Virus genome (UHGV): UHGV-0180032
Direction: 5' to 3' (one strand)
DNA from: a virus
Length of the DNA stretch: 64,000 nucleotides
Shown: positions 4,151 to 30,201 of the stretch, one piece after another
Position numbering within the stretch: the first letter of the stretch is position 1
Layout: every line of letters begins with the position of its first letter
Made by a program: the position numbers and the translations under genes
The notes under the pieces: model-generated
Told to the model about the DNA's origin: nothing
What the model saw: the letters and a program-made list of their open reading frames with translations, nothing else
Databases searched by the model: none

Positions 4151-4714
4151 GTGGCCACATCTTACGTACCTGATTTGAGTCTGACCTCAGCAGAGCTAGT
4201 GGTCGCTTTAATCAATCATGATAACGGGTTACAGCTTACACTAAACGAAATCCGTATTAGCGGAACTGTAACAAACCCATCCCCAACAACTTCGCGACGT
4301 AACACTATCACCGAAATCAGTAAAATCAGAAAACCGGATGGTGCGACTGTTGTGGTTTACTACGACAGACTCGATGCCGATGAGGTATTAACGTCCGAAC
4401 CTATTTTGATTTCGTTAGACGGTACCGAAGCGAACATTCGTGATGTTCTTAGTGTTGTAAATGAATACTGCGGTACGAACTTACAACCTGAGGACTTACG
4501 TGCCTCAGATATTACTTCAGGTAATGATCCTATTGCTATTAACGTTGCTGACGATTCTCCTGCCTGGATGAATGCGTTTATGGTGACGTTGTTTGATAAA
4601 ACCGAACGTGCGTTAGCGAACGAAGAAGATGAAATCTTCTGCATCGGTGACGATAGCGTTCTTACATTCGAGGTTACAGATGGCGACAGCACTGAAGAAG
4701 ACGAGACTCCATGA
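4151..4714 (+). CDS. hypothetical protein, member of an intragenomic paralog family (YYDRL...NLQPEDL motif)
   Basis: Track ORF, GTG start after ggaggg SD; clear similarity to 14372..14884 product. Confidence 0.55.
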   Translation: MATSYVPDLSLTSAELVVALINHDNGLQLTLNEIRISGTVTNPSPTTSRRNTITEISKIRKPDGATVVVYYDRLDADEVLTSEPILISLDGTEANIRDVLSVVNEYCGTNLQPEDLRASDITSGNDPIAINVADDSPAWMNAFMVTLFDKTERALANEEDEIFCIGDDSVLTFEVTDGDSTEEDETP

Positions 4715-5141
4715 GCTTGAAAGCTACGCAGGCACACCCCAAGGCGGGGTACTGCTGTATAGCAAAGACAATAAAGAATATAAAATTGACGTTGATAAGT
4801 TAGCCCCGGTTGCGACAGTCACCACGGTTAACGGTTCGAATAATGCCGCCACGATGGATTTCAATACCAGCACTGACATTATTCTGGTGTTAAACGATCC
4901 TAACACTACAGTGACGTTCGCAGCCCTTACCAACGTTGCGGAAAATACCCGTTTCGAAGTAATGCTAACGATTAAGCAAGGAACAGGGGCGAATAAAGTA
5001 ACTTGGCCTGAAAACGTTAAGTGGCCTCACGGTGCACAACCGGTTTTATCCTACGCGGCAAATGCGGAAGACACTCTGTCGCTTTATACCCTTGATGGGG
5101 GTGCCACCTGGAAAGGTTCTCTTCTTGCAGCGGGTTACTAA
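4680..5141 (+). CDS. small protein homologous to the N-terminal module of the long tail fibre
   Basis: Track ORF 4629..5141 trimmed to ATG 4680 (gagg SD); N-terminus MATALKKTRLHELESYAGTPQGGVLLYSKDNKEYK aligns with N-terminus of 8225..12850 product. Confidence 0.55.
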   Translation: MATALKKTRLHELESYAGTPQGGVLLYSKDNKEYKIDVDKLAPVATVTTVNGSNNAATMDFNTSTDIILVLNDPNTTVTFAALTNVAENTRFEVMLTIKQGTGANKVTWPENVKWPHGAQPVLSYAANAEDTLSLYTLDGGATWKGSLLAAGY

Positions 5142-5312: not shown

Positions 5313-8147
5313 ATGGCGGAATACCAACCGAACGGGGATGCGACGACCGAGGGTCAGTCGTTACACGTTATCGGTTACTGCCACATGTATATCGCAACGA
5401 AAGACGAAAGATGGTTAGATGCGGCGAAACACGCCTGGGATGCGTACAATACGTACTTCTACGCCGGGCAGCCTATTCCAACCACACCCCAGCGTCGTAT
5501 TTGTAACTGGTTGGTAAACGGGAAAGAACCGGTATTAGCACATTACCCAATAAACCCTACGGAACCTACCCAAGGTGGGTATAAAAGCGTCCCTGTAAGG
5601 TTTACAAACGGACAGTGTAAAATACCGCATGGTGCACCGTTCTGGGGAGAGTATTTGGATACCTTTACGTTTGCGCATCGTGGTCACCCTGCCTGGGAAG
5701 CCATTAACGCAGACGTACAGATTATCAAGGAAGACAAAGAAGGGTCAATTAATTGGGAAGATGTTTTAACTCACGTTATTACCAATCCTGATAAACCCTA
5801 CGAGGCCATAGCCTGGGTCGATTGGCCTACGTTGTTAAACAACGCTACAGGGTACACCCCGCTTTGGGGTGGTAGCGCAACAAAAGGCCCTAAATACGAC
5901 GCTGACTGGATAATTGCCTGGACAGGTAACAAAATCCAGGATAGTGAGATTATTGAGACAGGATTAGCAGACGCTGATAAAGGTACCGTACAGTTAAAAG
6001 ACACGCAGTTAAACGGTGTCTATTTGATTAACTACGCGGTAAAACTGCCTGTCGAACACGGGGGTTACGAGTTTAAACGTAACGAACCGTGGCACAACCG
6101 TCCGGTCCACACACCGTTCTTAGGGACGAAAAACCAATACGGCAACGCTGCTGATGCTGAACTGTGGTTTATTGACGCCTGTTATTTGCTGTGGCGAATC
6201 ACGGGTGAAGAGAAATACAAACAAGCATTAGACTGTACTTTCTACACAGCACACGAGTACACGTATATTGATGCAGTAGATAAATTCTTCCGTCGTTCTA
6301 CCGCTGCGGAAACACCGTTTACGGATGGTATTTCGTACGACTTCAATTACCCAGACACCGTAAGTGCTACCTACGGCCGTGATGAGAATGGGGATATTAC
6401 CATCCATGTGCCTGAAGCGGCACAACACTTTATGGAGCAGAAAGCGGTTCGATTCAGGATTAACAAAGACTCCAAACTACGTGTCACGTACGGCGGGGTT
6501 TGTAAGAACGGTGATCCTGTCTACTGCAAAGCAATGGTAAACATTAACCCTGCGAAAGGTGATACCGAGGAAGTAAACTGGTACGGTTTAACCTTACCTC
6601 GGTCTACGGTAAATGCCGTTAAGCAGTACGATGTTGACTTAGGCCAACTTGCTCGTATTACCACCCCAGAAGGGGAAGATTACCTGATAGCTGATGACCG
6701 CGCGTGTTCGGACTATGGTGGTTGTACGTGGGAAGAACGTTTTGAGGACAGCATTTACGACGGTCGCGCGGGTACCGTTATAGAAGCTGAATTTCCTGAT
6801 GACAGTGCCGGGTTTATTATCGGGTTCTGGTTAACCGCTGAAGAGAAGGTAAAACCGGTTTCTATTGTCTACCGTGCGGACGCGGATTTTAACCTGCGTT
6901 TAGCTGACAGTGATAACTGGCGTTGGTGGTGGATGTTACCCAACACAAACAACGAATGGCGTCAGGTAACGTTAAATCCGGATGATGCTACACTTTCCGG
7001 TTATCAGCCAGACCACACAGACGCTGACCCTAAACCGGCAGCACCGAATTTCGATAAGGTGGATCAGGTCACGATTCTCCCTGACTCTACGGTTGACCAT
7101 GCGCACTTTGCCTACTATTGCGTTAACAATGTTCCACCGCTCTTTAATAAAGACGACGGTTATATTCTCACCTTCCGTATTGGGTTACGCGGTGGTGGAG
7201 AGTATGATGCGAAGGTCGGCGACTGTACGATCAAAGATTACCGATTAGATTCGTTAGCGTATTGTCCGGGTACGATACCGTTCTCCAACAACTATTCAGA
7301 AGGTTCAGAACAGTTAGGTGCCTGGCACGGGATGCCTTATCCGGGTTATCAGTATCCGTTTATGTACACTATCCACAAAGACGACCGGTATAAGCTGTGG
7401 TTAGATAACCAGATTCAGTTCATGTACGACTCGCAGTTGGCTTACCAACGGCAGCTCGGTGAATTAGGGCCTGGTTGTGCTGCGTATATTTGGAACCGTT
7501 GGGACAACTACACCTACGGAGAAGCGGATACCTGGACAACGTTCCATTGGAGCGACGACCATCCGTGGCCAGGGTACCAACCGCGCGCGTTTCATGCGGC
7601 GTGTCGGTGCTGGTACGAACTGAAACTGCGAGGTAAAGAGGTTCCTGAGGCGTTAACAAACTATATTGAAAACTGGGTGAATTGGCTAGGTGGGTTTGTG
7701 GATCGGTTTAACGGACACACCCCTAACGAGTTCCCTACAGCACCGAATAAACCCGTTTGGGTGGAAGATGACTTCAACGCACATATGTGTGCGTTGTGGT
7801 TAGCAGGGTGTTGTTGGGCGTTACTCGCCGGTGCAACGAATCCGAACTACGAAAAAGTGGTTAATGCGGCAATTAAGGAGTTAGGTGAAGGGTTTACGAT
7901 TACCTCAATTCCGAATAAGCCGATTAACGGGGCGTGGTCTCCAGCCGCTCGAGAGTCTTCCGATAACGGTATGGCTTTTGGGTTCTACAGTGGGGAAGCG
8001 TTCCGTGCGTTAGGTCTCTACGTTACTTACAAAACCTACGGGGCCAACGCTAATATTTATCGTGACTTAGCGATTAGTGACCACAGTCAAGCGGTCTTAG
8101 ACGTTACGTTAACGATAGAAGACGATGCATTAAAACCAGAGCAATAA
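5313..8147 (+). CDS. large protein (944 aa), possibly tail-associated; function unknown
   Basis: Long uninterrupted ORF; Trp/aromatic-rich C-terminal half; sits between fibre N-module ORF and long tail fibre gene. Confidence 0.65.
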   Translation: MAEYQPNGDATTEGQSLHVIGYCHMYIATKDERWLDAAKHAWDAYNTYFYAGQPIPTTPQRRICNWLVNGKEPVLAHYPINPTEPTQGGYKSVPVRFTNGQCKIPHGAPFWGEYLDTFTFAHRGHPAWEAINADVQIIKEDKEGSINWEDVLTHVITNPDKPYEAIAWVDWPTLLNNATGYTPLWGGSATKGPKYDADWIIAWTGNKIQDSEIIETGLADADKGTVQLKDTQLNGVYLINYAVKLPVEHGGYEFKRNEPWHNRPVHTPFLGTKNQYGNAADAELWFIDACYLLWRITGEEKYKQALDCTFYTAHEYTYIDAVDKFFRRSTAAETPFTDGISYDFNYPDTVSATYGRDENGDITIHVPEAAQHFMEQKAVRFRINKDSKLRVTYGGVCKNGDPVYCKAMVNINPAKGDTEEVNWYGLTLPRSTVNAVKQYDVDLGQLARITTPEGEDYLIADDRACSDYGGCTWEERFEDSIYDGRAGTVIEAEFPDDSAGFIIGFWLTAEEKVKPVSIVYRADADFNLRLADSDNWRWWWMLPNTNNEWRQVTLNPDDATLSGYQPDHTDADPKPAAPNFDKVDQVTILPDSTVDHAHFAYYCVNNVPPLFNKDDGYILTFRIGLRGGGEYDAKVGDCTIKDYRLDSLAYCPGTIPFSNNYSEGSEQLGAWHGMPYPGYQYPFMYTIHKDDRYKLWLDNQIQFMYDSQLAYQRQLGELGPGCAAYIWNRWDNYTYGEADTWTTFHWSDDHPWPGYQPRAFHAACRCWYELKLRGKEVPEALTNYIENWVNWLGGFVDRFNGHTPNEFPTAPNKPVWVEDDFNAHMCALWLAGCCWALLAGATNPNYEKVVNAAIKELGEGFTITSIPNKPINGAWSPAARESSDNGMAFGFYSGEAFRALGLYVTYKTYGANANIYRDLAISDHSQAVLDVTLTIEDDALKPEQ

Positions 8148-8224: not shown

Positions 8225-11200
8225 ATGGCAAAAGCGGTAAAGAAAATACGATTACATAATCTTAGACCATATACCGGTGATATCGGTGAAGGCGTTTTAC
8301 TTTTCTCCAAGGATGAGAAAGATTATAAGTTACCAGTCCGTGAGATCATTGCGGATATTGACACCGTACGTAATGCGGTGGCTGAAGCACAAACAGCAGC
8401 AACACAATCACAAGAAGCTGCAACGCAGGCTACACAAGCAAAGAATTTAGCAGAAACCGCAAAACAACAAACTGACACCGTTGCGGCGACGGTTGCTCAA
8501 CAAGCGCAAACTGTAACCGAAAAAGCAACTGAAGTCGGTACAAAACACACTGAAGTGTTAGCCGCGAAAACGGCGGTAGATACCCAGGTTGTGTCCGTTA
8601 ATGAGAAAGCGCAAGCGGTAGCGGCAAGTGAGGCCAACGTCACACTAGCAGAGACTGCCGTTACGAAGAAAGCAGAAGCCGTCGCCACACAAGCCGGTCA
8701 AGTCGAACAGTCGCTTACAGCAGTTAACGAAGCTGTCGCGTCGGTAGAGTCGTCAAAAGCCTCTGTAGAAGCTACAGCAACGCAAGTTACCACAGACAAA
8801 GAAACCGCAGAGAATGCGGCAACGCGTTCTGAGGCAGCCGCTAAGCGCGCAGAAGAAATCGCTGCAAAAGGTAACGTTGATGCATCAACGACCAGTAAAG
8901 GTATCGTTAAGCTTAATAATACCCTAAGCAGTGACTCTGTTACTGAAGCGGCTACGCCGTCAACGGTTAAGCAGTTAAATGAAGATTTGCAGTTAAAAGC
9001 AAACCGTCACAACCCAACATTTACTGGTACGGTAAAAGCACCAACTCCTGCTTCGGATTCTAACGACACGAGTGTCTCAACGACTGCATGGGTACGACAA
9101 GCGATTGCTGAATTAGTGGATTCTTCACCCGAGACGTTAGATACGTTATCAGAAATTGCAGCTGCGTTAGGGAACGATCCTAACTTTGCGACAACGATGA
9201 CGAACCAACTCGCGGGTAAGCAGCCGTTAAGTCCGTTACTGACAGCGATTGCCGCAGTCACCACCGCTGCAAACAAACTCCCTTACTTTACCGGTAGTAA
9301 TCAGGTAGGGTTAGCGGATTTCACCTCGACTGCGCGTGATTTGTTAGCGAAAGGGTCGACGACCGATATCATTAACTTCCTGGGTTTGAAAACCACCGTC
9401 GATAAAGCTGCGGGTGCTATGCAACGCAGTTCTAACGGTGCCGATATTCCCGACAAAGTCACCTTCGCGAAGAACATCGGGTTGTCAGCAGAGACGTACC
9501 TGAAGTACAACGGCGATATGGCGATAGACGCGGACCTTAATACCTTCGGTCCAGTCGAAGCGTCTATGGGTATTTGGTCGAAAGGCACATCTACAAACGC
9601 AACGATTGCAAAGAACTTCCCGGAAGAAAACGCAGTCGGTTATTTAGAGGTTTTTAGAGCAGGTAACTACGGCGGGAGTCAGCGTTTCACTGTACGTAAC
9701 GGTAACGTCTATACACGTCATCTTACTGCTTCATGGAATGGGACAAACGGCCCTTGGTCAGAATGGCGTAATGTTGCCGGTTCCGCCAGAACGTTGAACG
9801 AACAAAATAATCTGAATGACTTAGGCGGTGAACCCGCACTGGGTGTTTGGAGAAACAGTACAAGTACGTTAGCAACAGCTGCGCTGAATTATCCTGAGGA
9901 AGGTTCCTTTGCCCAGGGTGTATTAGAGGTCCTCAAAGGTGGTAACTACAGTTACACACAACGCTACACTACCCGTAGAGGTAATGTGTACGTTCGTTGT
10001 CTACAGGCCACGTGGGACGCTTCTAATCCGCAGTGGGAAGAATGGCGCTGTGTCGGTCATCAATCTGTCAGCGCATATTTCGAAGGCGATCTCGACACGT
10101 TAACTTCGCCTAACCGTTATAGCATTACCGACAAAGCGACTAACGTTCCTTTAATCGACGGCACTAAAATTATCGGTATCTTGGATGTCAGTCGTCGTTT
10201 TGATAACGTCAGTGTCGAACAAAAATTCACCTCGTTTGGTTCCGGTAGTAAAACCACAGGTCGCGTTTTCACTCGTGTATTCTCCGGCCAATCAAACGGT
10301 AAATGGAGTGAGTGGCGAGAGGTTTTCACCTCGTATTCACTTCCGTTAGTTTTAGGCATTGGTGGTGAAGCTGCTAAGGTTGACCCGTTAGACTGGCAAA
10401 CTTACGACTTCGTTCCTGGTCAGATGCTAACGACACCGTTGAACACCATGAAAAACATTCCTGCGGGAATGGATTGGGGTGTGATTGACGGTAACTTAGT
10501 TAACATCCTTGTCGGGCCGTCTGACGACACTGGTACCGGTCGGAGTATGTTGGTTTGGCGTAGCACGGTGTCTACTGCCAACTATCGCTTCTTTGCGGTA
10601 CGTGTCGCTGGTGAGAAGGGTAGCCGTACGATTACGCCACGTCAGATGCCTGTGTTGAACGCAGCGCACACCTGGGCAGAGAAACAGACCTTTGCAAAAG
10701 GGTTAGCAGGTGAGTTAACCGGCAATGCTTCAACCGCCACTAAGCTCCAGACTGCGCGTAGAATTGGCGGGGTCGCTTTCGACGGCAGCGGTGACATTAA
10801 CCTCCCCGGTGTTAACCAACAGGGTAATCAAAACACCACGGGTAACGCCGCGACAGCCACTAAACTTCAAACCGCCAGAAATATTAACGGTGTGAGGTTC
10901 GATGGCTCTGGAGACATCAATATCAACACCTTGGTAGGTCGTGGACGGGTTACCGCTCTGACCGGGTCGAACAAGGGTACACCTGGTATCCAGATGTACG
11001 AAGTTTACAATAATGGTTATCCAACCGCTTATGGTAACTTGCTGCACTTAGGTGGTGCTAGTGCCGTAGGCGAAGGTGAACTGTTAATCGGTTGGTCTGG
11101 CACCAGCGGTGCGCACGCGCCAGTTTTTATTCGTAGTCGCCGCGATACGGCTGACGCGCCGTGGTCAGACTGGGCACAAGTTTATACTGCCCGTGACAGT

Positions 11201-12850
11201 ATTCCTGGCGTAAATGCCACCGGTAATCAAGATACGACCGGAAACGCCGCTACCGCAACCAAATTGAAAACCGCTCGCAGAATCGGTGGTGTTACCTTTG
11301 ACGGTACTGGGGATATCAATTTACCGGGCGTAAACCAGCAAGGCAACCAGAACACGACAGGTAATGCTGCAACAGCGACTAAACTTCAGACTGCCCGAAG
11401 TATCGGTGGTGTGGCTTTTGATGGTACGAAAGACATCAGTTTACCTGGGGTAAACCAAACGGGGAATCAGTCAACTACGGGGAACGCTGCTACTGCAACG
11501 AAGTTGCAGACAGCGCGTACCATTAACGGTATCGAATTTGACGGTACTAAAAATATTGAACTGACCCCAAGAGCCATAGGCACGATTAACTCAACAACCA
11601 TGTCTTTTAATGGTGGTGCCGGATGGTTCAAGCTGGCAACTGTAACCATGCCACAAGCCAGTTCCGTGGTTTACATAAGCATGATTGGTGGTGCAGGGTA
11701 TAACGTTGGCTCCCCGCAACAAGCTGGTATCTCTGAGCTGGTCCTGCGTGCAGGAAATGGGAACCCAAAAGGTATTACTGGTGCTTTATGGCGACGGACC
11801 TCTGTTGCTTTTACTAATTTTGCATGGGTGAATACATCTGGTGACACCTATGACATTTATGTAGAAATAGGTAATTACGCAACAGGTGTTAATATCCAAT
11901 GGGATTATACAAGTGACGCCACAGTACAAATCTATACATCGCCAACTTATACATCAGATAAACCAGCTGGTCTGACTGATGGAACGGTATATGTCGTTTA
12001 CAGTTCACACATTAAACCTACTGCGAATGATGTTGGGGCGTTGCCATTATCCGGCGGCCAATTGAATGGAGCTTTGGGTATTGGAACCGCCAATGCTTTA
12101 GGTGGGAACTCCATAGTTTTAGGGGATAATGACACCGGCCTTAAGCAGAACGGGGATGGCGTTCTAGATGTTTACGCCAATAATGCTCACGTTTTACGCT
12201 TTACGAGTGGGGCTGTTCAAAGCAATAAACCTCTCAACGTTACTGGGGATATAAGAACCAATACTTGGGTTTATGCAAATAGATATTCTATTAACAGCAA
12301 CTCAGGTTCTTGGATTAGCATGAGAGACCATAACGTTATTTTTGGTCTTAATGCGGTAGGAACTAGTTCTGCTCAGGCTTTGTTAAGACAAGACCATGCT
12401 GATAGGAAATATTTTGTTGGTGGTTTAGGTAACAGTCAATTCGGCTTTTACATGATAAACAACTCACGTACTGATAATGGCACCGATGCTAATGCTTATT
12501 TGCAAAATGACGGTACTTGGGTTTGTGGTGGGAACGGTAACTTTAACGACGTTTATATACGTTCAGACGCCCGGCTGAAAAGTAATTTCTCTCCAATAAC
12601 TAATGCATTGGAGAAGGTAAAGAAATTGTCAGGTTTAATATACGACAAAAAGGAGAACTTTAAATCCACTAATGTTCATCGTGAGGCTGGCGTTGTAGCA
12701 CAGACCTTACAAAAAGTGTTACCTGAAGCAGTTTCTACTTATAAAGACGCTAATGGTGAGGACGTTTTGACGGTCTCTAATTCTGCTCAAATAGCTTTAC
12801 TTATTGAGGCAATAAAGGAGTTGGCGGAGATAATTGAGACCAAGTTATAA
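8225..12850 (+). CDS. long tail fibre protein with C-terminal intramolecular-chaperone (S74-like) domain
   Basis: 1541 aa; Ala/Thr/Gln-rich N-terminal region; five copies of a ~40-aa repeat; C-terminal SDARLKSNF...LIEAIKEL motif typical of auto-cleaving fibre chaperone domains. Confidence 0.9.
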   Translation: MAKAVKKIRLHNLRPYTGDIGEGVLLFSKDEKDYKLPVREIIADIDTVRNAVAEAQTAATQSQEAATQATQAKNLAETAKQQTDTVAATVAQQAQTVTEKATEVGTKHTEVLAAKTAVDTQVVSVNEKAQAVAASEANVTLAETAVTKKAEAVATQAGQVEQSLTAVNEAVASVESSKASVEATATQVTTDKETAENAATRSEAAAKRAEEIAAKGNVDASTTSKGIVKLNNTLSSDSVTEAATPSTVKQLNEDLQLKANRHNPTFTGTVKAPTPASDSNDTSVSTTAWVRQAIAELVDSSPETLDTLSEIAAALGNDPNFATTMTNQLAGKQPLSPLLTAIAAVTTAANKLPYFTGSNQVGLADFTSTARDLLAKGSTTDIINFLGLKTTVDKAAGAMQRSSNGADIPDKVTFAKNIGLSAETYLKYNGDMAIDADLNTFGPVEASMGIWSKGTSTNATIAKNFPEENAVGYLEVFRAGNYGGSQRFTVRNGNVYTRHLTASWNGTNGPWSEWRNVAGSARTLNEQNNLNDLGGEPALGVWRNSTSTLATAALNYPEEGSFAQGVLEVLKGGNYSYTQRYTTRRGNVYVRCLQATWDASNPQWEEWRCVGHQSVSAYFEGDLDTLTSPNRYSITDKATNVPLIDGTKIIGILDVSRRFDNVSVEQKFTSFGSGSKTTGRVFTRVFSGQSNGKWSEWREVFTSYSLPLVLGIGGEAAKVDPLDWQTYDFVPGQMLTTPLNTMKNIPAGMDWGVIDGNLVNILVGPSDDTGTGRSMLVWRSTVSTANYRFFAVRVAGEKGSRTITPRQMPVLNAAHTWAEKQTFAKGLAGELTGNASTATKLQTARRIGGVAFDGSGDINLPGVNQQGNQNTTGNAATATKLQTARNINGVRFDGSGDININTLVGRGRVTALTGSNKGTPGIQMYEVYNNGYPTAYGNLLHLGGASAVGEGELLIGWSGTSGAHAPVFIRSRRDTADAPWSDWAQVYTARDSIPGVNATGNQDTTGNAATATKLKTARRIGGVTFDGTGDINLPGVNQQGNQNTTGNAATATKLQTARSIGGVAFDGTKDISLPGVNQTGNQSTTGNAATATKLQTARTINGIEFDGTKNIELTPRAIGTINSTTMSFNGGAGWFKLATVTMPQASSVVYISMIGGAGYNVGSPQQAGISELVLRAGNGNPKGITGALWRRTSVAFTNFAWVNTSGDTYDIYVEIGNYATGVNIQWDYTSDATVQIYTSPTYTSDKPAGLTDGTVYVVYSSHIKPTANDVGALPLSGGQLNGALGIGTANALGGNSIVLGDNDTGLKQNGDGVLDVYANNAHVLRFTSGAVQSNKPLNVTGDIRTNTWVYANRYSINSNSGSWISMRDHNVIFGLNAVGTSSAQALLRQDHADRKYFVGGLGNSQFGFYMINNSRTDNGTDANAYLQNDGTWVCGGNGNFNDVYIRSDARLKSNFSPITNALEKVKKLSGLIYDKKENFKSTNVHREAGVVAQTLQKVLPEAVSTYKDANGEDVLTVSNSAQIALLIEAIKELAEIIETKL
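10722..11575 (+). repeat. phage tail-fibre repeats (about five copies) inside the fibre CDS
   Basis: Repeated unit GNQ(N/D)TTGNAATATKLQTAR-I-G(V)-FDG-GDI-LPGVNQ seen directly in the translation. Confidence 0.6.
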
Positions 12851-12854
12851 TTAT

Positions 12855-12877
12855 CAGTGAGGGGGAACCCCTCACTG
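12855..12877 (+). promoter_or_regulatory. intergenic stem-loop between fibre and adhesin genes
   Basis: 10-bp perfect stem cagtgagggg/cccctcactg, loop gaa; no T-run after it. Confidence 0.35.
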
Positions 12878-12897
12878 ACTCACAAGTACGTTATAAG

Positions 12898-13689
12898 GTG
12901 GTTATTTTGTCTGTATCAGCGACTCCCGGATGGATTGGTTCTTCAGCAAAAGCTGAAGCTGGTGACGGTTGGATGTCTGGCGCGATGCGCACACTTGGTG
13001 TGCCGGTTCCAGGCTGGATGTCGCAATTGGCGGGAAAATCAAAAGAGGCTCAGTATTCGATCGGGGCTAATCACAATTACAATAAAGATACGCTTATTAA
13101 CTATTTACGTTCCATAGGCTCTACTGCTGTCGTTGTGACCATTACAGGGGATTTAGTGTCTTATAGTAGCGGGGTTCCTTGTTTAGAGTTCCCTAGCAAT
13201 CTTCCAAATTCGTATATTACCCTCATCATCAATCCTGGGGTTACAGTATACGGCAGAGGAGGCAACGGCGGTTCTAACTCACCAGGCGGTGCAGGTGGAA
13301 CCGCAATACAGAACGGAATAGGAAACAGACTGCGTATAACCAACCGTGGCGCTATTGCCGGAGGCGGTGGCGGCGGTGGCGGCGGTAACAGGGGTAGACT
13401 AGTATTTGGTGGTGGCGGTGGTCGCCCATTCGGTGCTGGTGGGTCTTCCTCTCATATGAGTTCCGGTGCGGCTGCTGGTACTATTTCCGCTCCTGGTAGA
13501 GGATCTGTTGGTGAGGGGTCTCTTAGTGCATATACAGGCGGTTCGGGTGGTAATGTCGGTGCTGGTGGAGGAAGATGTAATACTCATGGTAACGGTACAG
13601 AATATAACGGCGGAGCAGCTGGTGCAGCTGTTACTGGTAATGCGCCAAGATGGGACGCAGTAGGTGCAATATACGGTTCACGTGTTTAA
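12898..13689 (+). CDS. gp38-like tail-fibre tip adhesin (T2-type, glycine-rich)
   Basis: N-terminal PGWIGSSAKAEAGDGWMS...PGWMSQLAG; poly-Gly blocks (GGGGGGGGG, FGGGGGRPFGAGGSSSHMSSG); C-terminal TGNAPRWDAVGAIYGSRV; matches my recollection of T2/T6 gp38. Confidence 0.75.
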   Translation: MVILSVSATPGWIGSSAKAEAGDGWMSGAMRTLGVPVPGWMSQLAGKSKEAQYSIGANHNYNKDTLINYLRSIGSTAVVVTITGDLVSYSSGVPCLEFPSNLPNSYITLIINPGVTVYGRGGNGGSNSPGGAGGTAIQNGIGNRLRITNRGAIAGGGGGGGGGNRGRLVFGGGGGRPFGAGGSSSHMSSGAAAGTISAPGRGSVGEGSLSAYTGGSGGNVGAGGGRCNTHGNGTEYNGGAAGAAVTGNAPRWDAVGAIYGSRV

Positions 13690-13705
13690 TTAAAAAAGAG
13701 GGTAG

Positions 13706-14218
13706 ATGGGGGTAGCGTCAGGATGGGTCGGTTCTTCGGCCAAGAGTGAAACGGGCGAACAATGGATGAGCGCTGCTGGTAGTAAATTAGGATTGGGTAG
13801 ACCTTTTATGATGAGCCAAATGGTAGGCAGGTCTGTAGGTTGCAAAATAGCAACAGCTTATTATAAAACGTCAAATACTGATAAGGTAGAGAACTGGGGT
13901 GCTGTCGGAGCCGATTGGCCGTTGGTAGATAAGAACAAAGGAACGCTTTCTGGTGCCTCGAACTGTGGCTTAGGACGTTTAGTGGGGATCGTACTTACGC
14001 AAGCTCACTACGTTGCCGGTGTTCCGCCTACTGCCGCTTTATATATTTCTGGCGGACGGGCGAGTAACATTACGGTGACGGTTGGTGGTGTTTCGCAAGC
14101 ATTTACTTACAATAGTGTTACTAACGGTTTTCACTATTATTGGCAAGGAACACCGAGTTCGGCCTTTATAGCGGCAATGAAGAAGACGGGTGTTACACAA
14201 GATTTGAAAATTAGCTAA
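13706..14218 (+). CDS. second gp38-like protein: conserved N-terminal module with a different, non-glycine-rich C-terminal domain
   Basis: N-terminus GWVGSSAKSETGEQWMS aligns with 12898 product; remainder unrelated. Confidence 0.6.
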   Translation: MGVASGWVGSSAKSETGEQWMSAAGSKLGLGRPFMMSQMVGRSVGCKIATAYYKTSNTDKVENWGAVGADWPLVDKNKGTLSGASNCGLGRLVGIVLTQAHYVAGVPPTAALYISGGRASNITVTVGGVSQAFTYNSVTNGFHYYWQGTPSSAFIAAMKKTGVTQDLKIS

Positions 14219-14303
14219 CTAATTGGGGTAAAACGATAACCAAAATTAGTAAAATAAGAATTCGTAATTCAATAATTTTTTATAGAAAGGTTGATTTATT
14301 AGA

Positions 14304-14354
14304 ATCGGGGGGGGGGTGAAATGTTTTTAGCCAACATTTTATGTCTCCCCAATC
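14304..14354 (+). promoter_or_regulatory. G-tract hairpin element, copy 2
   Basis: atc-G10-...-CCCC-aatc with an internal sub-hairpin; just upstream of SD/GTG of 14372 gene. Confidence 0.35.
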
Positions 14355-14371
14355 ATAGGAGGTAACCATAC

Positions 14372-14884
14372 GTGGAACAATTCACGCCTGATTTGTCCTT
14401 AACTTCACTTAACATGGTTATTTCACTGGTTAACCATGACCTCCAGCTCGACTTGCAAGAGAACGAGGTTGAAGTCAGCGACGTAAAGACCAGTGACGAA
14501 ATGGATCGTGACACCACTGCTGTTGTAAAGATAAAACGTCCCGGTAACAGAACGTTACAAATCTATTACAACCGTTTAACCGCAGAACGTTGGTTAAACC
14601 AGCAACCTATTCTGGTACAAGTAGCTGGAGAGGGGTTTAACACACACGATTTAATCGACGGGATTAACGCAGCCTGTGGCAGTAACCTGCAACCTGAAGA
14701 TCTTCAGGACGATTCATTTACAGTAGGAAAAGACGCTGTAACGTTACAGGTATCACCTAACTCCCTAAGTTATAAAGGCCAATTCTCTGTTTTGGTTTTT
14801 GGTAACGGTGAAGAAGCCGCAGTAACAAAAGATGACAACCTAATCGTTACCGCAGATAATCGCGTCTTAACCTTTGGTGGTTAA
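14372..14884 (+). CDS. hypothetical protein, paralog of 4151..4714 product
   Basis: Track ORF, GTG start after aggagg SD; shared PDLSLTS...LVNHD...YY(D/N)RL...CG(T/S)NLQPEDL. Confidence 0.55.
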   Translation: MEQFTPDLSLTSLNMVISLVNHDLQLDLQENEVEVSDVKTSDEMDRDTTAVVKIKRPGNRTLQIYYNRLTAERWLNQQPILVQVAGEGFNTHDLIDGINAACGSNLQPEDLQDDSFTVGKDAVTLQVSPNSLSYKGQFSVLVFGNGEEAAVTKDDNLIVTADNRVLTFGG

Positions 14885-14981
14885 TAGTGGCTGACACGAG
14901 CTACCATCACTTTCAGAAGACATCACTATTAAGCGTCTTACAGGGACAACGCTTTCTCAGAACGGAATGAAATAAATATTA

Positions 14982-15029
14982 GGTAGTAGGGGCTAAGCCC
15001 CTACTACCTTTCTTTTTTTTTATTTTTTC
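14982..15029 (+). terminator. intrinsic terminator
   Basis: Stem ggtagtagggg/cccctactacc, loop ctaag, followed by long T-run. Confidence 0.65.
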
Positions 15030-15074
15030 TCAGATATATATTACCTAGAGGAGAGCGAAATTTACATTCGCTCT
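15028..15074 (+). promoter_or_regulatory. conserved promoter-like box plus stem-loop, copy A
   Basis: tctcagatatatattacctagaggagag followed by hairpin agagcg/cgctct; near-identical box at 18331 and 54431. Confidence 0.45.
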
Positions 15075-15182
15075 ATTAGTTATAGCCGAAAGGAGGATTA
15101 GTTCTATCACCCGCATTATCTGTTCTGGTGAATTGGGCGAAGATAAATTAGTTGAAGATTACATTAAGAAGGAAGGGCAATT

Positions 15183-15626
15183 ATGAAACCAAATACTACT
15201 AACGGCATTATGCTACTTTGTGATTCTGAAACGTTAGCAAATCGTATTCGTGGTTTGATGGAAGTACGTTGGAAGCAAAAGGTTCGCGTGGACTATGCTG
15301 CCCCGTTTGTTCACGTTACTTGGTTACCAGAAGCTGACGATTTTAGAGAAAAAATAACCACGAGAAGAATTAAAGATTGGTTATCAGCAATCATTAATAA
15401 ACAGATTACCGTTATCAATTTCCAACTTTTCGGTACCGCTGAAGAACATGAAATCTTGAAACAGTGTTTAAGAGCATTGGCTCTTTCCTTCTCTGTTCGT
15501 GGAAACTGTTACACGACTTATTTTATCGGTTCGCTTGAACTGTTTAAGAATACGCTAATGCTTCAGCTAAAAGACGACTACAAACTTTTAGATAAAATCG
15601 ATTTCGAATTCCCAGCAATGATTTAA
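15183..15626 (+). CDS. hypothetical protein (147 aa)
   Basis: Track ORF; SD aaggaagg. Confidence 0.6.
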   Translation: MKPNTTNGIMLLCDSETLANRIRGLMEVRWKQKVRVDYAAPFVHVTWLPEADDFREKITTRRIKDWLSAIINKQITVINFQLFGTAEEHEILKQCLRALALSFSVRGNCYTTYFIGSLELFKNTLMLQLKDDYKLLDKIDFEFPAMI

Positions 15627-27435: not shown

Positions 27436-27977
27436 TCTTCTTCTCCAACCATACCTAATTCTTGCAGCAAGCCAAAATCAATCAACTGGAAGGTTTCAGA
27501 GAGATCGTTTGACCACACCACGTTTGCAATGTCGCGTTCTTCATCCGTTAACTGCGGTAACACACTTTCGTTGAACGTCTGATGCTCTACGTAATACGCA
27601 TCGTAGATAGACGTGGAACGCAAACAACGGATGGGTAGACGCGGGAAAGACACCGCTAACGCAGCAATAGACGCGCTGCTCGGATTCTCCGCTGAATAAC
27701 GAAGCAGTTCGATTTTGTGGCGTGGGTAGTCCAGTACACGTTGTTCGAAACCCGGATTACGTTTTTCGATTTCCACAACGGACTCATGGCCTGTTTCTGT
27801 GCAGTAAACAGGAATCATCACGTTTAACCCGTACTTAATCAGCAGGGGTTTAATCTCATCTGTAAAGTCTTCACCAGGGATAATGGCGTGGACGTTATAG
27901 AGTTTGTGTTTACGCAGAAAACGCTCAACCAGGTGGAGTTTACGCTTCGTAAAATTGTGGATCAGAATTGATTTCAT
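27411..27977 (-). CDS. hypothetical protein
   Basis: Track ORF 27411..28001 trimmed to second ATG (27977) with gagg SD; overlaps end of radical-SAM gene. Confidence 0.5.
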   Translation of the reverse strand: MKSILIHNFTKRKLHLVERFLRKHKLYNVHAIIPGEDFTDEIKPLLIKYGLNVMIPVYCTETGHESVVEIEKRNPGFEQRVLDYPRHKIELLRYSAENPSSASIAALAVSFPRLPIRCLRSTSIYDAYYVEHQTFNESVLPQLTDEERDIANVVWSNDLSETFQLIDFGLLQELGMVGEEECLLLTKA

Positions 27978-29274
27978 TATTTGCCTCAGTAGGTTGTGCA
28001 TTTAACGCACGTTTAGCTTGCTCACGCTCACGCGTACATTTCGGACAGTAACAAACAGACGAATCGTGCAGTGACGACGCGTGGACGGTACCTGTACGTT
28101 GACGCCAGTATTCTGCTGCCATCAGTTTGGCGGTCGTCCAACCACATTGACGACGTTCAGCGTGGTACGCCTTACGGTCTTCCAGTGTCCCTTCACCGTT
28201 TTCGTAGGATGCGGCCGCACAGCTCCCACAACCGTGTTTCATCGGACAGCCTAAGCACGTTTCAGGATAGTTGGTGTATTGCGTCTGAATCTCTTCCAGC
28301 AGTTTCCCACCGTCTAAGCTAACAAACTCACGACCGACTAACTCAAACACCGCAGAACGTGACGTTACCGTTGACATAAACCGGTTACAACCGTACACCT
28401 TACGGTCAAAACCTAAGCAGGTCATAAACGTCAACGTCCCACAGAACGGACGTAAACGTTCAGGGTTATAACGGTGCGTGTCGTCGTACAGCAGTTTATC
28501 GCGCCAATCCGGGTCCCAAATCTGACGGAAATCCAGACCTTCAGGAATGATGTGGGACAACACGTTACGTGGGTTGGTGTGCAGTCCTTTCTCAATCCAA
28601 TAATCCATCACCTCGATCATCTGCAACGCAATATCCGTCGCCATGCTTCGTGGAAGAATATCTTCGTACGTCACGTTACCTGAAATCGTACCGCCACCGG
28701 CAATATCGATTAACGACTTCATACTCGCCGCGTAATGCGGTAAGGTTTCGGACGTAAAGGTTGCCTTAATACCCAGTTCGGCGATACCCACTTCTTTTAA
28801 GTAGTTATAGCCACGAACAGCGGCTTCGTAAGAACCCTGACGCGACGTGGTAAAGATACGATAGCGGTCATGGACTTCTGGCAACCCGTCGATAGAAACA
28901 CCGATGGAGAGTTTGTCTTTCCAACGCTCAACAATCTCACGGTTTAACGGACGGTCTAACAACGTCCCGTTCGTGGAGATACTGAACATATACGGGCGGT
29001 TATGCTCCTTACACAGCTGTTCTGCGGTTTCAAACGCCGCTAACAGCAGTTTCGGTTGCATAAAAGGTTCGCCGCCGATGATATCAATAATGACGTCGAT
29101 GTTCGGAATATCTTTGTCACGCTCAAAACAGGCGTGTAAGAAATCCACGATATCCGCCGCTTTGTTATTACGCGGATACTTACGTTCGTAACAATACTCA
29201 CAGTCTAAGTTACAAGACAGGTTCGTTACCACCTGGTAAGTACGTTGTGAACGTGGTGCTTCATTATTGCTCAT
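27940..29274 (-). CDS. radical SAM enzyme with C-terminal SPASM-type Cys cluster (peptide/protein maturase-like)
   Basis: CNLDCEYC (CxxxCxxC), IIGGEPFM SAM-binding motif, C-terminal CLGCPMKHGCGSCAA plus further Cys; 444 aa. Confidence 0.85.
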   Translation of the reverse strand: MSNNEAPRSQRTYQVVTNLSCNLDCEYCYERKYPRNNKAADIVDFLHACFERDKDIPNIDVIIDIIGGEPFMQPKLLLAAFETAEQLCKEHNRPYMFSISTNGTLLDRPLNREIVERWKDKLSIGVSIDGLPEVHDRYRIFTTSRQGSYEAAVRGYNYLKEVGIAELGIKATFTSETLPHYAASMKSLIDIAGGGTISGNVTYEDILPRSMATDIALQMIEVMDYWIEKGLHTNPRNVLSHIIPEGLDFRQIWDPDWRDKLLYDDTHRYNPERLRPFCGTLTFMTCLGFDRKVYGCNRFMSTVTSRSAVFELVGREFVSLDGGKLLEEIQTQYTNYPETCLGCPMKHGCGSCAAASYENGEGTLEDRKAYHAERRQCGWTTAKLMAAEYWRQRTGTVHASSLHDSSVCYCPKCTREREQAKRALNAQPTEANNEINSDPQFYEA

Positions 29275-30181
29275 CTTTGCTTATCCTTTTACGCTCTGCA
29301 TAAATCACGCGTTTAATGTACTCGTAAGCACCTACCCCGATAGAGCAAGCAAGCTGATTGCACCCACCCTTTAAGATAGCCGGTGCATTCTGAAGCTGAT
29401 GTTCTGTTCCATCTGCGTTCAAATACAACTCTTCGCTACAGACATTACACTCGTTTTCGAAAATCTTGCTGACAGACACACCGCACGATTCTCCAGTTTG
29501 GACGTTCAGCCGTTCCATATTCTCCTGAATCTTTAAATAACCATAAACGAAGTTCATGATGTGATCGGGAGACAACGGTTTTGGCATTTGGGCATCAAAC
29601 ATCAGAGAGAACGCACGGGGACGATAGTGGTACATTGCACGATGCAGTTCCACAATATCTTCATACCAGCGCTTATCGGCTAACTGGTCACGCGTAATCA
29701 CAGCCCAGGTTTGGAAGTTATCGAGTTCGTATAACGCTTCCAGTGCTTCGTGGCTATCCTCTTCAATAAAGCGTATAAAAGGACGCTCAGAACGCTTGTA
29801 GCCATCAATTGATACAAACACATGCTCAAAGTCTTTTAGCAGCGTAAGATGCGATTTACGCAGCTTTAATCCGTTGGTATACAAGTGATGCTCAAGATGC
29901 GGATGAGACACTTTCAATTCGTTAACGAAATCCTCAATCTTACGTTGGACGAGTAGCGGTTCTCCACCGGTCCAATGTATTTCCTTAATAGCTGGATTCT
30001 CTTGTAGTAATTCCAGGATACGTTCGCGTTGAAAAGCACGAGACGAATCTTCACGATTCATGTAGTAGGCTCCACCGCAGAAACTACAGTCTAGGTTACA
30101 CTTAGACGTCGTAACTACGGACAATATAGTGGGTTTATCGTACAACTTCGTCGAGATCCTGGATTCCACATTGTCTATCAT
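29264..30181 (-). CDS. radical SAM enzyme (second, shorter) with C-terminal auxiliary Cys motifs
   Basis: CNLDCSFC, HWTGGEPLL, C-terminal CNVCSEE...GGCNQLACS; 305 aa; stop overlaps start of 27940..29274. Confidence 0.8.
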   Translation of the reverse strand: MIDNVESRISTKLYDKPTILSVVTTSKCNLDCSFCGGAYYMNREDSSRAFQRERILELLQENPAIKEIHWTGGEPLLVQRKIEDFVNELKVSHPHLEHHLYTNGLKLRKSHLTLLKDFEHVFVSIDGYKRSERPFIRFIEEDSHEALEALYELDNFQTWAVITRDQLADKRWYEDIVELHRAMYHYRPRAFSLMFDAQMPKPLSPDHIMNFVYGYLKIQENMERLNVQTGESCGVSVSKIFENECNVCSEELYLNADGTEHQLQNAPAILKGGCNQLACSIGVGAYEYIKRVIYAERKRISKDEQ

Positions 30182-30201
30182 TGCAGGTTGCTCCAGTATT
30201 T

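What the first reader, a model, noticed from the sequence alone, without database searches (positions are those of the whole stretch)
8225..14218. Long tail fibre with a chaperone-like C-terminus followed by two alternative gp38-like tip adhesins
The 1541-aa fibre ends in an S74/intramolecular-chaperone-like segment (SDARLKSNF...), implying autoproteolytic trimming. Directly downstream are two ORFs with the same N-terminal module (GW(I/V)GSSAK-E-G-WMS) that in T2-type phages docks gp38 onto the fibre tip. One has the classic poly-Gly motifs; the other has an unrelated, non-glycine C-terminal domain. Two interchangeable tip adhesins would give dual receptor specificity or host-range switching.
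Basis: partly seen in the sequence, partly recalled or inferred. Interest (0 to 1): 0.6.

Follow-up and report, generated by a model that had tools for sequence, protein, structure and literature searches.

The report
Tail fibre with two alternative adhesin caps
A jumbo phage encodes one self-trimming tail fibre followed by two different clip-on receptor-binding caps that share a docking module, an arrangement built from known parts that probably lets the phage recognise two receptors but is not proven to.

Summary
ORF 8225-12850 is a 1541-aa fibre ending in a Pfam Peptidase_S74 intramolecular chaperone (Ser1447/Lys1452). Two adhesin genes follow. The first (12907-13689) is a classic poly-glycine gp38 that matches S16 gp38 over its full length. 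The second (13706-14218) has the same Gp38_N docking module but an unrelated beta-rich C-domain, and belongs to the catalogued RB43/Stx-phage class (phrog_1121).

Fibre + chaperone + gp38 is the textbook T2/S16 design. The tandem second cap is the unusual part.

For two usable caps:
- The tandem layout recurs in six related ~225-kb jumbo-phage genomes.
- Dual-adhesin loci arose independently in PEi20-like T4 phages and in a ~107-kb phage.
- Both genes are intact, apparently co-transcribed and under purifying selection.
- All partner fibres share the pre-cleavage motif GNG(N/S)FNDV(Y/Q)IR.
- This tip type accepts docking modules only 44-51% identical to each other.

Against:
- Where the second type is the sole adhesin, the fibre always has the Q junction, not this fibre's Y junction.
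- Its third docking tryptophan is methionine.
- One relative carries a broken poly-Gly copy.
- Docking could not be modelled.

Verdict: a new variant of a known kind, of moderate interest.

The parts
8225..12850 (+). Tail fibre gene, 1541 aa. The N-terminal ~40 aa look like an anchor motif. Then come an Ala/Thr/Gln-rich coiled region, a repeat-rich shaft, a distal domain like phage Mu fibre protein S, the junction motif, and the C-terminal chaperone.
   Evidence: ORF. Many PHROG tail-fibre families match, E down to 1e-228. Matches to solved structures. Anchor motif.
12194..12562 (+). Distal domain of the mature fibre (aa 1324-1446), homologous to phage Mu tail fibre protein S residues 320-447. 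It ends in the conserved pre-cleavage motif GNGNFNDVYIR (aa 1436-1446, nt 12530-12562), which is the predicted docking platform for the caps.
   Evidence: PDB 5YVQ_A, E 2e-39. The motif is conserved in every fibre that precedes a Gp38_N adhesin, even where the shafts are unrelated.
12563..12847 (+). Intramolecular chaperone (Peptidase_S74), aa 1447-1541. Ser1447 and Lys1452 form the predicted catalytic pair, with cleavage predicted between Arg1446 and Ser1447.
   Evidence: Pfam PF13884, E 4.4e-15. Alignment to the chaperone part of S16 gp37, PDB 6F45_A. Residue positions.
12854..12878 (+). Perfect 11-bp hairpin just after the fibre stop codon, with no U-tract. It may attenuate or stabilise the transcript (speculative). 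The stem is conserved in a relative whose loop is different.
   Evidence: RNA fold -23.8 kcal/mol, z -2.8. L233 has the same stem with loop TTC instead of GAA.
12907..13689 (+). Adhesin 1: a poly-glycine gp38, 260 aa from the TTG start (alternative GTG at 12898). The docking module is aa 1-47, with apex residues Trp, Trp, Trp. The rest is a beta-helix plus polyglycine-sandwich specificity domain.
   Evidence: Pfam GP38 E 3e-69 and Gp38_N E 1e-11. 6F45_D E 5e-50. phrog_2056 E 7e-91. About 80% nt identity to RB49/JSE/Phi1 gp38. Apex residues.
13706..14218 (+). Adhesin 2: a 170-aa non-glycine gp38-like adhesin. The docking module is aa 1-43 (nt 13706-13834), with apex residues Trp7, Trp20, Met35. 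The C-domain is aa 44-170 and is predicted to be beta-rich.
   Evidence: Pfam Gp38_N E 1e-19. phrog_1121 'tail fiber adhesin' over the full length, E 1.5e-54. AF2 model with C-domain pLDDT 73-92. No convincing PDB fold match. Homologs in CMS-2020a (86%) and Stx phages (69%). Aligns with RB43 gp38 at 37% over aa 6-125.
14372..14884 (+). DUF7941 virion structural protein. It is the last gene of the apparent fibre operon and has a paralog at 4151-4714.
   Evidence: Pfam PF25613 E 8e-16. phrog_2935/1037 'virion structural protein'. Paralog 37% identical. Syntenic in all relatives.
14981..15009 (.). Strong bidirectional intrinsic-terminator-like hairpin (13-bp stem with T-runs on both sides). It is the first such element downstream of the fibre, both adhesins and DUF7941.
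   Evidence: repeat I2.

Best explanation
This is a T2/S16-type capped tail fibre in a jumbo phage, with two alternative caps.

Shown by homology:
- The 1541-aa fibre trimerises with the help of its own C-terminal S74 chaperone.
- The chaperone carries the Ser1447/Lys1452 pair that in related proteins cuts the chaperone off. That would leave a tip ending ...GNGNFNDVYIR.
- Such fibres have no receptor-binding end of their own. A separately encoded monomeric adhesin clips onto the trimer tip through a ~45-aa N-terminal module.
- That module is made of three pseudo-repeats, GW(I/V)GS / (G/Q)WMS / (G/F)(W/M)MSQ. In S16, the apex residue of each repeat inserts into one of three equivalent pockets on the fibre.
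- The operon encodes two such adhesins: a poly-glycine gp38 (RB49/S16-like) and a small beta-rich adhesin of the RB43/Stx-phage class.

Inferred:
- Both are made from one late transcript and compete for the same tip, one cap per fibre. Virions would then carry a mixture of fibres with two receptor specificities, which widens or hedges host range.
- The conserved docking modules also serve as homologous-recombination joints, through which tips and specificity domains are shuffled between phages.
For: Domain calls:
- S74, GP38 and Gp38_N.
- Matches to the solved S16 gp37-gp38 complex.
- The docking rule as stated by the S16 authors (PMC6851490).

Each adhesin type works alone elsewhere, behind a fibre with the same junction motif and a chaperone:
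- Adhesin 2 type is the sole cap in Stx phages, CMS-2020a isolate SCU-175 and the jumbo fragment L033.
- Adhesin 1 type is the sole cap in CMS-2020a isolate SCU-107 and in T-even phages.

The tandem pair recurs:
- It is present in six related jumbo genomes (window/L005, L006, L032, L034, L233) that carry two different tip alleles.
- Dual Gp38_N loci arose independently in PEi20, L098 and L078.

Both genes look used:
- Purifying selection: adhesin 2 dN/dS 0.075 at dS 0.83 between window and L006. Adhesin 1 dN/dS 0.19-0.35.
- Both vary in their specificity parts within the same tip background. Adhesin 2 has alleles a and b, 55% identical in the C-domain. Adhesin 1 differs in its hypervariable segments in L233.
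- No terminator lies between the genes; the first is at 14981. Both have Shine-Dalgarno sites.

The tip is promiscuous:
- The tip type WVCGGNG(N/S)FNDVYIR is directly followed, in different phages, by docking modules only 44-51% identical to each other, with W, N or S at the third apex.
- Adhesin 2's module is 60% identical to one of them.
- RB43-like phages have two different chaperone-ended fibre genes but only one adhesin gene (Trojet 2011, PMC3157838).

Non-glycine gp38 is a genuine adhesin: RB43 gp38 carries host-range mutations in its C-domain (PMC3157838), and adhesin 2 aligns with it beyond the docking module.
Against: - No direct test of docking was possible, because no multimer modelling was available.
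- In every locus where an adhesin 2-type module (apex W-W-M, 'PFMMSQMVG') is the sole adhesin, the fibre junction is NDVQIR. This fibre has NDVYIR, which otherwise pairs with W/N/S/Y-type modules.
- Trojet et al. describe lock-and-key pairing of gp37 C-terminal subtypes with gp38 N-terminal subtypes.
- The third docking Trp is Met in adhesin 2.
- In L034, which has the Q tip, adhesin 1 has a 48-aa in-frame deletion that removes the central beta-helix and glycine motif. So one of the pair can be lost.
- The Y tip + adhesin 1 block is very young (dS 0.02 between window and L032), so a passenger adhesin 2 might simply not have decayed yet.
- Only 64 kb of a ~225-kb genome was examined for other fibres.
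Confidence: 0.5

Rival explanations
1. Only one cap fits each tip (lock and key). On this Y-type, Mu-S-like tip, the poly-Gly adhesin 1 is the working cap. Adhesin 2 is the clade's ancestral cap for the Q-type tip, left behind when a tip + chaperone + adhesin 1 cassette recombined in. It persists as a still-intact passenger, or as a reserve that becomes useful when the tip is swapped back.
For: - Q junctions pair only with adhesin 2-like modules and Y junctions only with other modules. The sole exceptions are these jumbo tandem loci.
- L033 has a Q tip and adhesin 2 only.
- CMS-2020a SCU-107 has the same Y tip with adhesin 1 only.
- In Q-tip L034, the supposedly non-cognate adhesin 1 is internally deleted.
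- The Y tip + adhesin 1 block is recent: dS 0.02 and 93% nt identity, ending right after adhesin 2's docking module.
- Lock-and-key pairing was reported by Trojet 2011.
Against: - The Q junction, its chaperone and the adhesin 2 docking module are physically adjacent and travel as one cassette. Their association may therefore be linkage from one origin rather than functional fit.
- The three pockets of a homotrimer are identical and already accept Trp7 and Trp20 of adhesin 2.
- Y tips tolerate W, N, S or Y at the third apex, and docking modules only 44-51% identical to each other.
- S16 has Asn at the Y/Q position yet docks a W-W-W adhesin.
- Adhesin 2 is intact in all six genomes, including three with Y tips.
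- The dual loci in PEi20, L098 and L078 have two modules that both satisfy the rule.
Confidence: 0.3
2. Adhesin 2 caps a different chaperone-ended fibre encoded elsewhere in the ~225-kb genome. The two adhesins would then sit on two different fibres.
For: - Only 64 kb was inspected.
- The phage clearly has several receptor-binding-type proteins that share an N-terminal anchor motif.
- RB43-like phages show that fibre and adhesin gene numbers need not match.
Against: - The window has only one S74 or junction motif.
- In every other phage examined, the adhesin gene lies just downstream of its fibre.
Confidence: 0.08
3. Adhesin 2 is not a virion adhesin. It would be an assembly factor or chaperone for the fibre or for adhesin 1, like T4 gp38 or the Tfa proteins.
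For: - T4 gene 38 at the same genomic position is a chaperone.
- Small ORFs downstream of gene 37 have been suggested to be chaperones (Trojet 2011).
- Some GenBank records label homologs 'assembly catalyst'.
Against: - Adhesin 2 has no similarity to Tfa or T4 gp38 families. Its only Pfam hit is the gp38 docking module.
- Fibres with an S74 chaperone fold without a separate chaperone.
- Adhesin 2-type proteins are the only cap candidate in Stx phages, CMS-2020a SCU-175 and L033, whose fibres end in the bare junction motif.
- RB43 gp38 of the same class carries host-range mutations.
Confidence: 0.05

Closest known systems
T2/T6/S16-type long tail fibre tip: gp37 with a C-terminal intramolecular chaperone, plus a monomeric gp38 adhesin (PDB 6F45)
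   Same: - S74 chaperone with a Ser/Lys pair at the fibre's C-terminus.
- Adhesin gene immediately downstream.
- Gp38_N docking module with three Trp apexes.
- Polyglycine specificity domain; adhesin 1 matches 6F45_D over its full length, E 5e-50.
   Different: - The host phage is a ~225-kb jumbo phage distantly related to Seoulvirus (Chimalliviridae), not a T-even phage.
- The fibre is a single 1541-aa protein with a Mu-S-like distal domain, not the gp34-37 assembly.
- A second, structurally unrelated cap gene follows the first.
RB43-type non-glycine gp38 adhesins and the 'tail fibre adhesin' of short-tailed Stx phages such as P13374 ORF66 (phrog_1121)
   Same: - Adhesin 2 is a full-length member: a Gp38_N module plus a ~125-aa non-glycine C-domain.
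- It is 69% identical to the Stx-phage protein and 86% to the CMS-2020a protein.
- It aligns with RB43 gp38 to about residue 125.
   Different: - In those phages it is the only adhesin and sits directly after the fibre. Here it is second in a tandem pair.
- Here the fibre has the Y rather than the Q junction.
- The third apex residue is Met rather than Trp, as in the Stx-phage proteins.
Edwardsiella phages PEi20/PEi26 (Kanagawavirus), annotated with two consecutive gene 38 copies
   Same: One chaperone-ended gp37 is followed by two Gp38_N adhesin genes in tandem.
   Different: - Both PEi20 adhesins are non-glycine and have near-identical W-W-W docking modules.
- They are in a T4-like phage.
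- I found no functional study of them in the searched library.
Phages with two receptor-binding proteins, or with switchable fibres (Mu G segment, P1 C segment)
   Same: The goal is the same: more than one receptor specificity from one virion design. The distal fibre domain is homologous to Mu fibre protein S.
   Different: - There is no invertible segment, inverted repeats or invertase.
- Both caps are on the same strand in one operon.
- The alternatives are separate clip-on monomers, not alternative fibre C-termini or separate fibres.

Membership tests
Fibre with C-terminal intramolecular chaperone (Peptidase_S74, PF13884) | Profile match above the curated cutoff, at the extreme C-terminus of a fibre or spike protein | tested here: met
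   56.1 bits against a cutoff of 22, aa 1447-1503 of 1541. Also aligns to the chaperone part of S16 gp37 and to MYRF.
Fibre with C-terminal intramolecular chaperone (Peptidase_S74, PF13884) | Catalytic Ser-Lys pair (S-x4-K) at the start of the domain | tested here: met
   Ser1447 and Lys1452 in SDARLK. The same S-D-x-(R/K)-x-K motif is in all 45 collected fibre ends.
Fibre with C-terminal intramolecular chaperone (Peptidase_S74, PF13884) | Autoproteolytic release of the chaperone after trimerisation | not testable with these tools
   Needs protein expression, or virion mass spectrometry showing a mature end at Arg1446.
gp38 adhesin, T2/S16 type (PF05268 + PF21721): adhesin 1 | Gp38_N docking module and glycine-rich-motif specificity domain | tested here: met
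   Gp38_N 44.9 bits and GP38 233.4 bits, both against a cutoff of 25. 6F45_D E 5e-50 over aa 8-258.
gp38 adhesin, T2/S16 type (PF05268 + PF21721): adhesin 1 | Three conserved apex tryptophans in the docking module (per PMC6851490) | tested here: met
   GWIGS, GWMSG and GWMSQ at aa 8, 21 and 36. Mapping these onto the S16 apex residues is my inference from the alignment.
gp38 adhesin, T2/S16 type (PF05268 + PF21721): adhesin 1 | Encoded just downstream of a chaperone-ended fibre gene | tested here: met
   56 nt lie between the fibre stop and the TTG start.
gp38 adhesin, T2/S16 type (PF05268): adhesin 2 | Glycine-rich-motif specificity domain | tested here: not met
   No PF05268 hit. 12% Gly. 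Only aa 1-43 match 6F45_D. Adhesin 2 is therefore not filed in this family.
Gp38_N-bearing non-glycine adhesins (RB43 / Stx-phage class, phrog_1121): adhesin 2 | Gp38_N docking module above cutoff, plus a full-length family profile match | tested here: met
   Gp38_N 70.6 bits against a cutoff of 25. phrog_1121 E 1.5e-54, aa 1-169 on profile positions 1-179 of 181. RB43 gp38 BLASTP E 7e-16.
Gp38_N-bearing non-glycine adhesins (RB43 / Stx-phage class, phrog_1121): adhesin 2 | S16-style docking through three apex tryptophans | tested here: inconclusive
   Trp7, Trp20 and Met35. Met is shared by all close homologs, including those that are the sole adhesin. Other family members have N, S or Y at this position.
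Gp38_N-bearing non-glycine adhesins (RB43 / Stx-phage class, phrog_1121): adhesin 2 | The C-domain determines receptor or host range, and the protein is present on the virion | not testable with these tools
   Known only for RB43 gp38, from the literature.
Invertible-segment fibre switch (Mu G, P1 C) | Inverted repeats flanking alternative fibre ends on opposite strands, plus an invertase | tested here: not met
   No long inverted repeats around 11500-15300, and both adhesins lie on the + strand.
Tail fibre assembly chaperones (T4 gp38, Tfa, Mu U) | Profile similarity to Tfa-type families | tested here: not met
   Gp38_N is the only Pfam hit for adhesin 2 at E <= 0.1.

The most novel reading that the evidence does not exclude
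A single self-trimming fibre is capped at random by either of two structurally unrelated monomeric adhesins that share a pseudo-threefold docking module. Each virion would then carry a mixed set of fibre tips, recognise two receptors and hedge its bets. The same docking module would act as a universal recombination joint that moves tips and caps between jumbo phages, T-even phages, ~107-kb phages, P2-like phages and Stx phages. This would be a general 'plug-and-socket' system, with multi-cap loci as a recurrent and so far undescribed strategy.
Probability: 0.45. Interest if true: 0.65.

Novelty: new variant of a known kind. Interest (0 to 1): 0.5.

Why it matters
Gp38-type caps are the main host-range determinant of T-even-like phages and a favourite target for engineering therapeutic phages.

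If one fibre tip can take either of two very different caps, three things follow:
- Host range can be doubled by adding a ~0.5-kb gene rather than a new fibre.
- The junction motif GNG(N/S)FNDV(Y/Q)IR plus Gp38_N would define a portable socket-and-plug standard, usable across unrelated phage families including jumbo phages.
- Host-range prediction from genomes would need to look for more than one cap per fibre.

The adhesin 2 class is also the presumed adhesin of the O104:H4-type Stx2 phages. Its fold has no solved relative.

Tried and rejected
- **Whole-region megablast:** it found only mosaic matches, and no sequenced phage in the collection has this locus.
- **Fold search of the adhesin 2 model:**
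  - BFVD returned only other small gp38-like phage proteins.
  - The afdb50 library was unavailable.
- **N-terminal module in AF2:** it was modelled with pLDDT below 50 as a monomer, so no structural statement about docking is made.
- **Literature searches for dual or tandem gp38, PEi20, or jumbo-phage gp38:** nothing relevant turned up. This is absence from the searched library only.
- **Sigma-70 promoter scan:** fewer hits than in shuffled sequence (6 against 10.3), which is uninformative for a phage of this type.
- **Inversion-switch idea:** rejected. There are no flanking inverted repeats.
- **Recent gene duplication as the origin of the two adhesins:** rejected. There is no nucleotide-level repeat between them and the modules are only 51% identical.
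- **Multimer modelling of tip plus cap:** not possible with the tools.
Full report
**1. What is in the sequence**

Three consecutive + strand ORFs occupy 8225-14218.

- **The fibre.** The first ORF encodes a 1541-aa protein that matches dozens of PHROG tail-fibre families.
  - Its last 95 residues are a Pfam Peptidase_S74 intramolecular chaperone (E 4.4e-15).
  - The domain starts with SDARLK, which gives Ser1447 and Lys1452 at the canonical spacing.
  - It also aligns to the chaperone portion of Salmonella phage S16 gp37 in PDB 6F45.
- **Adhesin 1.** The second ORF carries Pfam Gp38_N plus GP38 (E 3e-69).
  - It aligns over its whole length with the solved S16 gp38 (6F45_D, E 5e-50).
  - Its likeliest start is TTG 12907, five bases after AAGGTGG. 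An independent gene caller picked the same start in a relative.
- **Adhesin 2.** The third ORF (170 aa) has a stronger Gp38_N match (E 1e-19) and no other Pfam hit.
  - Only residues 1-43 match S16 gp38.
  - The rest is not glycine-rich: 12% against 27% in adhesin 1.
- A six-frame HMM scan found no other Gp38_N module or chaperone in the 64-kb window.

**2. Genomic setting**

- The window comes from a jumbo phage. Outside the fibre tip, it matches Seoulvirus/SPN3US-like phages and Erwinia phage pEa_SNUABM_29 only at ~73% nt identity. Seoulvirus belongs to the Chimalliviridae.
- The source is probably IMG/VR contig 3300045988_095954 (L005, 100% identical).
- The fibre's last third and the adhesins are mosaic. 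The distal fibre domain and adhesin 1 match a ~108-kb E. coli phage (CMS-2020a) and Yersinia P2-like phages. Adhesin 1 also matches RB49/JSE/Phi1 gp38 at ~80% nt.
- Fibre residues 1324-1452 are homologous to phage Mu fibre protein S (5YVQ, E 2e-39).
- No terminator-like element separates the fibre, the two adhesins and the downstream DUF7941 structural gene. A strong bidirectional terminator lies at 14981-15009. Both adhesins have Shine-Dalgarno sites. One late transcription unit is the simplest reading, though this is an inference.

**3. What the parts are known to do**

- The S16 authors describe the mechanism (PMC6851490). Gp37 is a homotrimeric beta-helix. One gp38 monomer attaches to its base through an N-terminal three-helix bundle. 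Three conserved apex tryptophans insert, 120 degrees apart, into equivalent hydrophobic pockets.
- Other papers state that in T2, T6, S16 and RB49, gp37 carries a self-cleaving chaperone and lacks its own receptor-binding end, which gp38 supplies.
- Fibre + chaperone + adhesin 1 is therefore the textbook design.
- Trojet et al. 2011 (PMC3157838) showed that RB43 gp38 has the conserved attachment domain plus a C-domain unrelated to the glycine type, and that this C-domain carries host-range mutations.
- Adhesin 2 belongs to that broader class.
  - It is a full-length member of phrog_1121 'tail fiber adhesin' (E 1.5e-54).
  - It aligns with RB43 gp38 (locus L089) to about residue 125.
  - It has 86% and 69% identical homologs in CMS-2020a and in the O104:H4-type Stx2 phages, where it is annotated as tail fibre adhesin.
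- Its C-domain is predicted with good confidence as a beta-rich domain (pLDDT 73-92). It has no convincing solved relative.

**4. Comparative evidence on the tandem pair**

I fetched 233 related loci.

- **Each adhesin type is a sole cap elsewhere.**
  - Adhesin 2 type alone follows the fibre in Stx phages, CMS-2020a isolate SCU-175 and the jumbo fragment L033.
  - Adhesin 1 type alone follows the fibre in CMS-2020a isolate SCU-107 and in T-even phages.
- **The tandem pair is conserved.** It is present in the window/L005, L006, L032, L034 and L233. These genomes have fibre shafts only ~75% identical and two different tip/chaperone alleles.
- **Dual Gp38_N loci arose independently** in PEi20/PEi26, in another T4-like contig (L098), and in a ~107-kb phage (L078). 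L078 has a fibre, a non-glycine adhesin, one more ORF, and then a poly-Gly gp38.
- **All fibres preceding any Gp38_N adhesin share the junction GNG(N/S)FNDV(Y/Q)IR|SD-x-(R/K)-x-K.** This holds even where the sequence just upstream is unrelated: collagen-like in Stx phages, Mu-S-like here.
- **Selection.**
  - Adhesin 2 has dN/dS 0.075 at dS 0.83 between window and L006.
  - Adhesin 1 has dN/dS 0.19-0.35.
- **Both specificity domains vary within one tip background.**
  - Adhesin 2 occurs as alleles a and b, 55% identical in the C-domain.
  - Adhesin 1 in L233 differs in the hypervariable segments between conserved glycine motifs.
- **Mosaic breakpoints fall at the docking modules** (window ~12928 and ~13858). 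The modules therefore double as recombination joints, echoing the motif-mediated shuffling described for T-even gp38.

**5. The main caveat**

- In my sample, every fibre with an adhesin 2-like module as its only cap has the NDVQIR junction. This module type reads 'PF(M/Y)MSQMVG', with apex residues W-W-M or W-S-Y.
- NDVYIR junctions, like this window's, pair with W-W-W, W-W-N, W-W-S or W-W-Y modules.
- The only exceptions are the jumbo tandem loci themselves.
- This, together with Trojet's lock-and-key statement, supports a rival reading.
- In line with this, Q-tip L034 carries an adhesin 1 that lacks 48 residues of its core.

Several points weigh against the rival:

- The Q junction, its chaperone and the adhesin 2 module are adjacent and clearly spread as one cassette, so the association may be linkage.
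- The trimer's three pockets are identical and already accommodate Trp7 and Trp20 of adhesin 2.
- The third apex is demonstrably tolerant on Y tips.
- The very tip type found here is followed in other phages by modules only 44-51% identical to each other, and adhesin 2's module is 60% identical to one of them.
- S16 has Asn at the Y/Q position with a W-W-W cap.
- RB43-like phages serve two different chaperone-ended fibres with one adhesin gene.

I therefore put dual capping at about 0.5 and the one-cognate-one-passenger reading at about 0.3.

**6. Other rivals**

- **A second fibre elsewhere in the genome.** This is not excluded. No second chaperone or junction exists in the window, and the source contig gave one hit in an incomplete scan.
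- **A chaperone role for adhesin 2.** This is unlikely. It has no Tfa-like similarity, its relatives are the only cap candidates in several phages, and fibres with an S74 chaperone do not need a separate one.
- **A regulated switch of the Mu/P1 type.** This is excluded by the absence of inverted repeats and by gene orientation.

**7. Novelty and verdict**

- Every component belongs to a catalogued family.
- New or unremarked points:
  - a T-even-style cap system on a single-protein fibre of a Chimalliviridae-related jumbo phage;
  - two structurally different caps behind one fibre;
  - the recurrence of multi-cap loci in at least three lineages.
- GenBank already annotates two gene-38 copies in PEi20. 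I found no paper discussing dual gp38-type adhesins, but this covers the searched library only.
- I rate it a new variant of a known kind, interest about 0.5. It is a clear, cheap-to-test hypothesis with engineering relevance, but it is not a new principle and the key step is not yet shown.

Noticed in passing
window 4151-5141 and 8225-8350; 14372-14884: The gene pattern is repeated. A DUF7941 structural gene (4151-4714) is followed by a small ORF (about 4677-5141) whose first ~40 residues are 47% identical to the fibre's N-terminus (MA.A.KK.RLH.L..Y.G...GVLL.SKD.K.YK). A second DUF7941 paralog (37% identical) follows the adhesins. This suggests several receptor-binding proteins share one baseplate-attachment motif, each paired with a DUF7941 protein.
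   Followed up: partly
window 14894-14927, compared with L006 8181-8801, L032 8151-8771, L033 4481-5101, L034 8115-8735 and L233 8129-8749: All five relatives encode a 206-aa protein between DUF7941 and the terminator. It carries the same N-terminal anchor motif and hits phrog_33169. The window lacks this gene (about 565 nt missing), so it has lost one putative receptor-binding or fibre-like protein.
   Followed up: partly
L034 6340-6978: The poly-Gly adhesin in this relative has a 48-aa in-frame deletion between two GGAGG-type repeats. The deletion removes the central beta-helix strands and the long glycine motif. It is either a decayed gene or an assembly collapse at glycine-codon repeats.
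   Followed up: partly
window 12854-12878; L233 about 6144-6168: The 11-bp hairpin right after the fibre stop codon keeps its stem in L233, but the loop is GAA here and TTC there. That conservation suggests a structural role. L006 and L034 lack the hairpin and instead overlap the fibre stop with the adhesin start.
   Followed up: partly
window 14307-14316: A run of ten G lies in the AT-rich spacer between adhesin 2 and the DUF7941 gene. It could be slippage-prone, part of a promoter, or a sequencing-error hotspot.
   Followed up: no
L032 6217-8151: In this relative, the DUF7941 gene is the C-terminal part of a 644-aa ORF. About 470 extra residues lie upstream, so the DUF7941 protein can exist as a larger fusion.
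   Followed up: no
L089, L090, L091, L099 (RB43-like T4-type genomes): Two consecutive fibre genes each end in a junction motif plus chaperone, about 2.5 kb apart, but only one Gp38_N adhesin gene follows. This is the inverse of the window's arrangement. It matches the gene 37 duplication noted by Trojet 2011 and implies one cap can serve two tips.
   Followed up: partly
L002 3872-6513 (Stx2 phage P13374 ORF65-ORF66): The O104:H4 outbreak-type Stx phage fibre has collagen-like G-x-y repeats running almost up to the same junction motif and chaperone. An adhesin 2-type cap follows. The receptor-binding fold of this medically relevant phage group has no solved relative.
   Followed up: partly
window about 27700-30250: Two radical-SAM genes and their neighbours are the best-conserved stretch (~75% nt) shared with Seoulvirus-like Salmonella, E. 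coli and Proteus jumbo phages.
   Followed up: no
L233 (Logan SRR1965798 contig, 171.8 kb); protein P0001: A close relative of this jumbo phage, with the same tandem adhesins, is present in a Salmonella Typhimurium isolate sequencing run and in an NCBI Salmonella assembly (a 224.8-kb contig). This hints that Salmonella is a host and that the phage can persist in cultures.
   Followed up: partly
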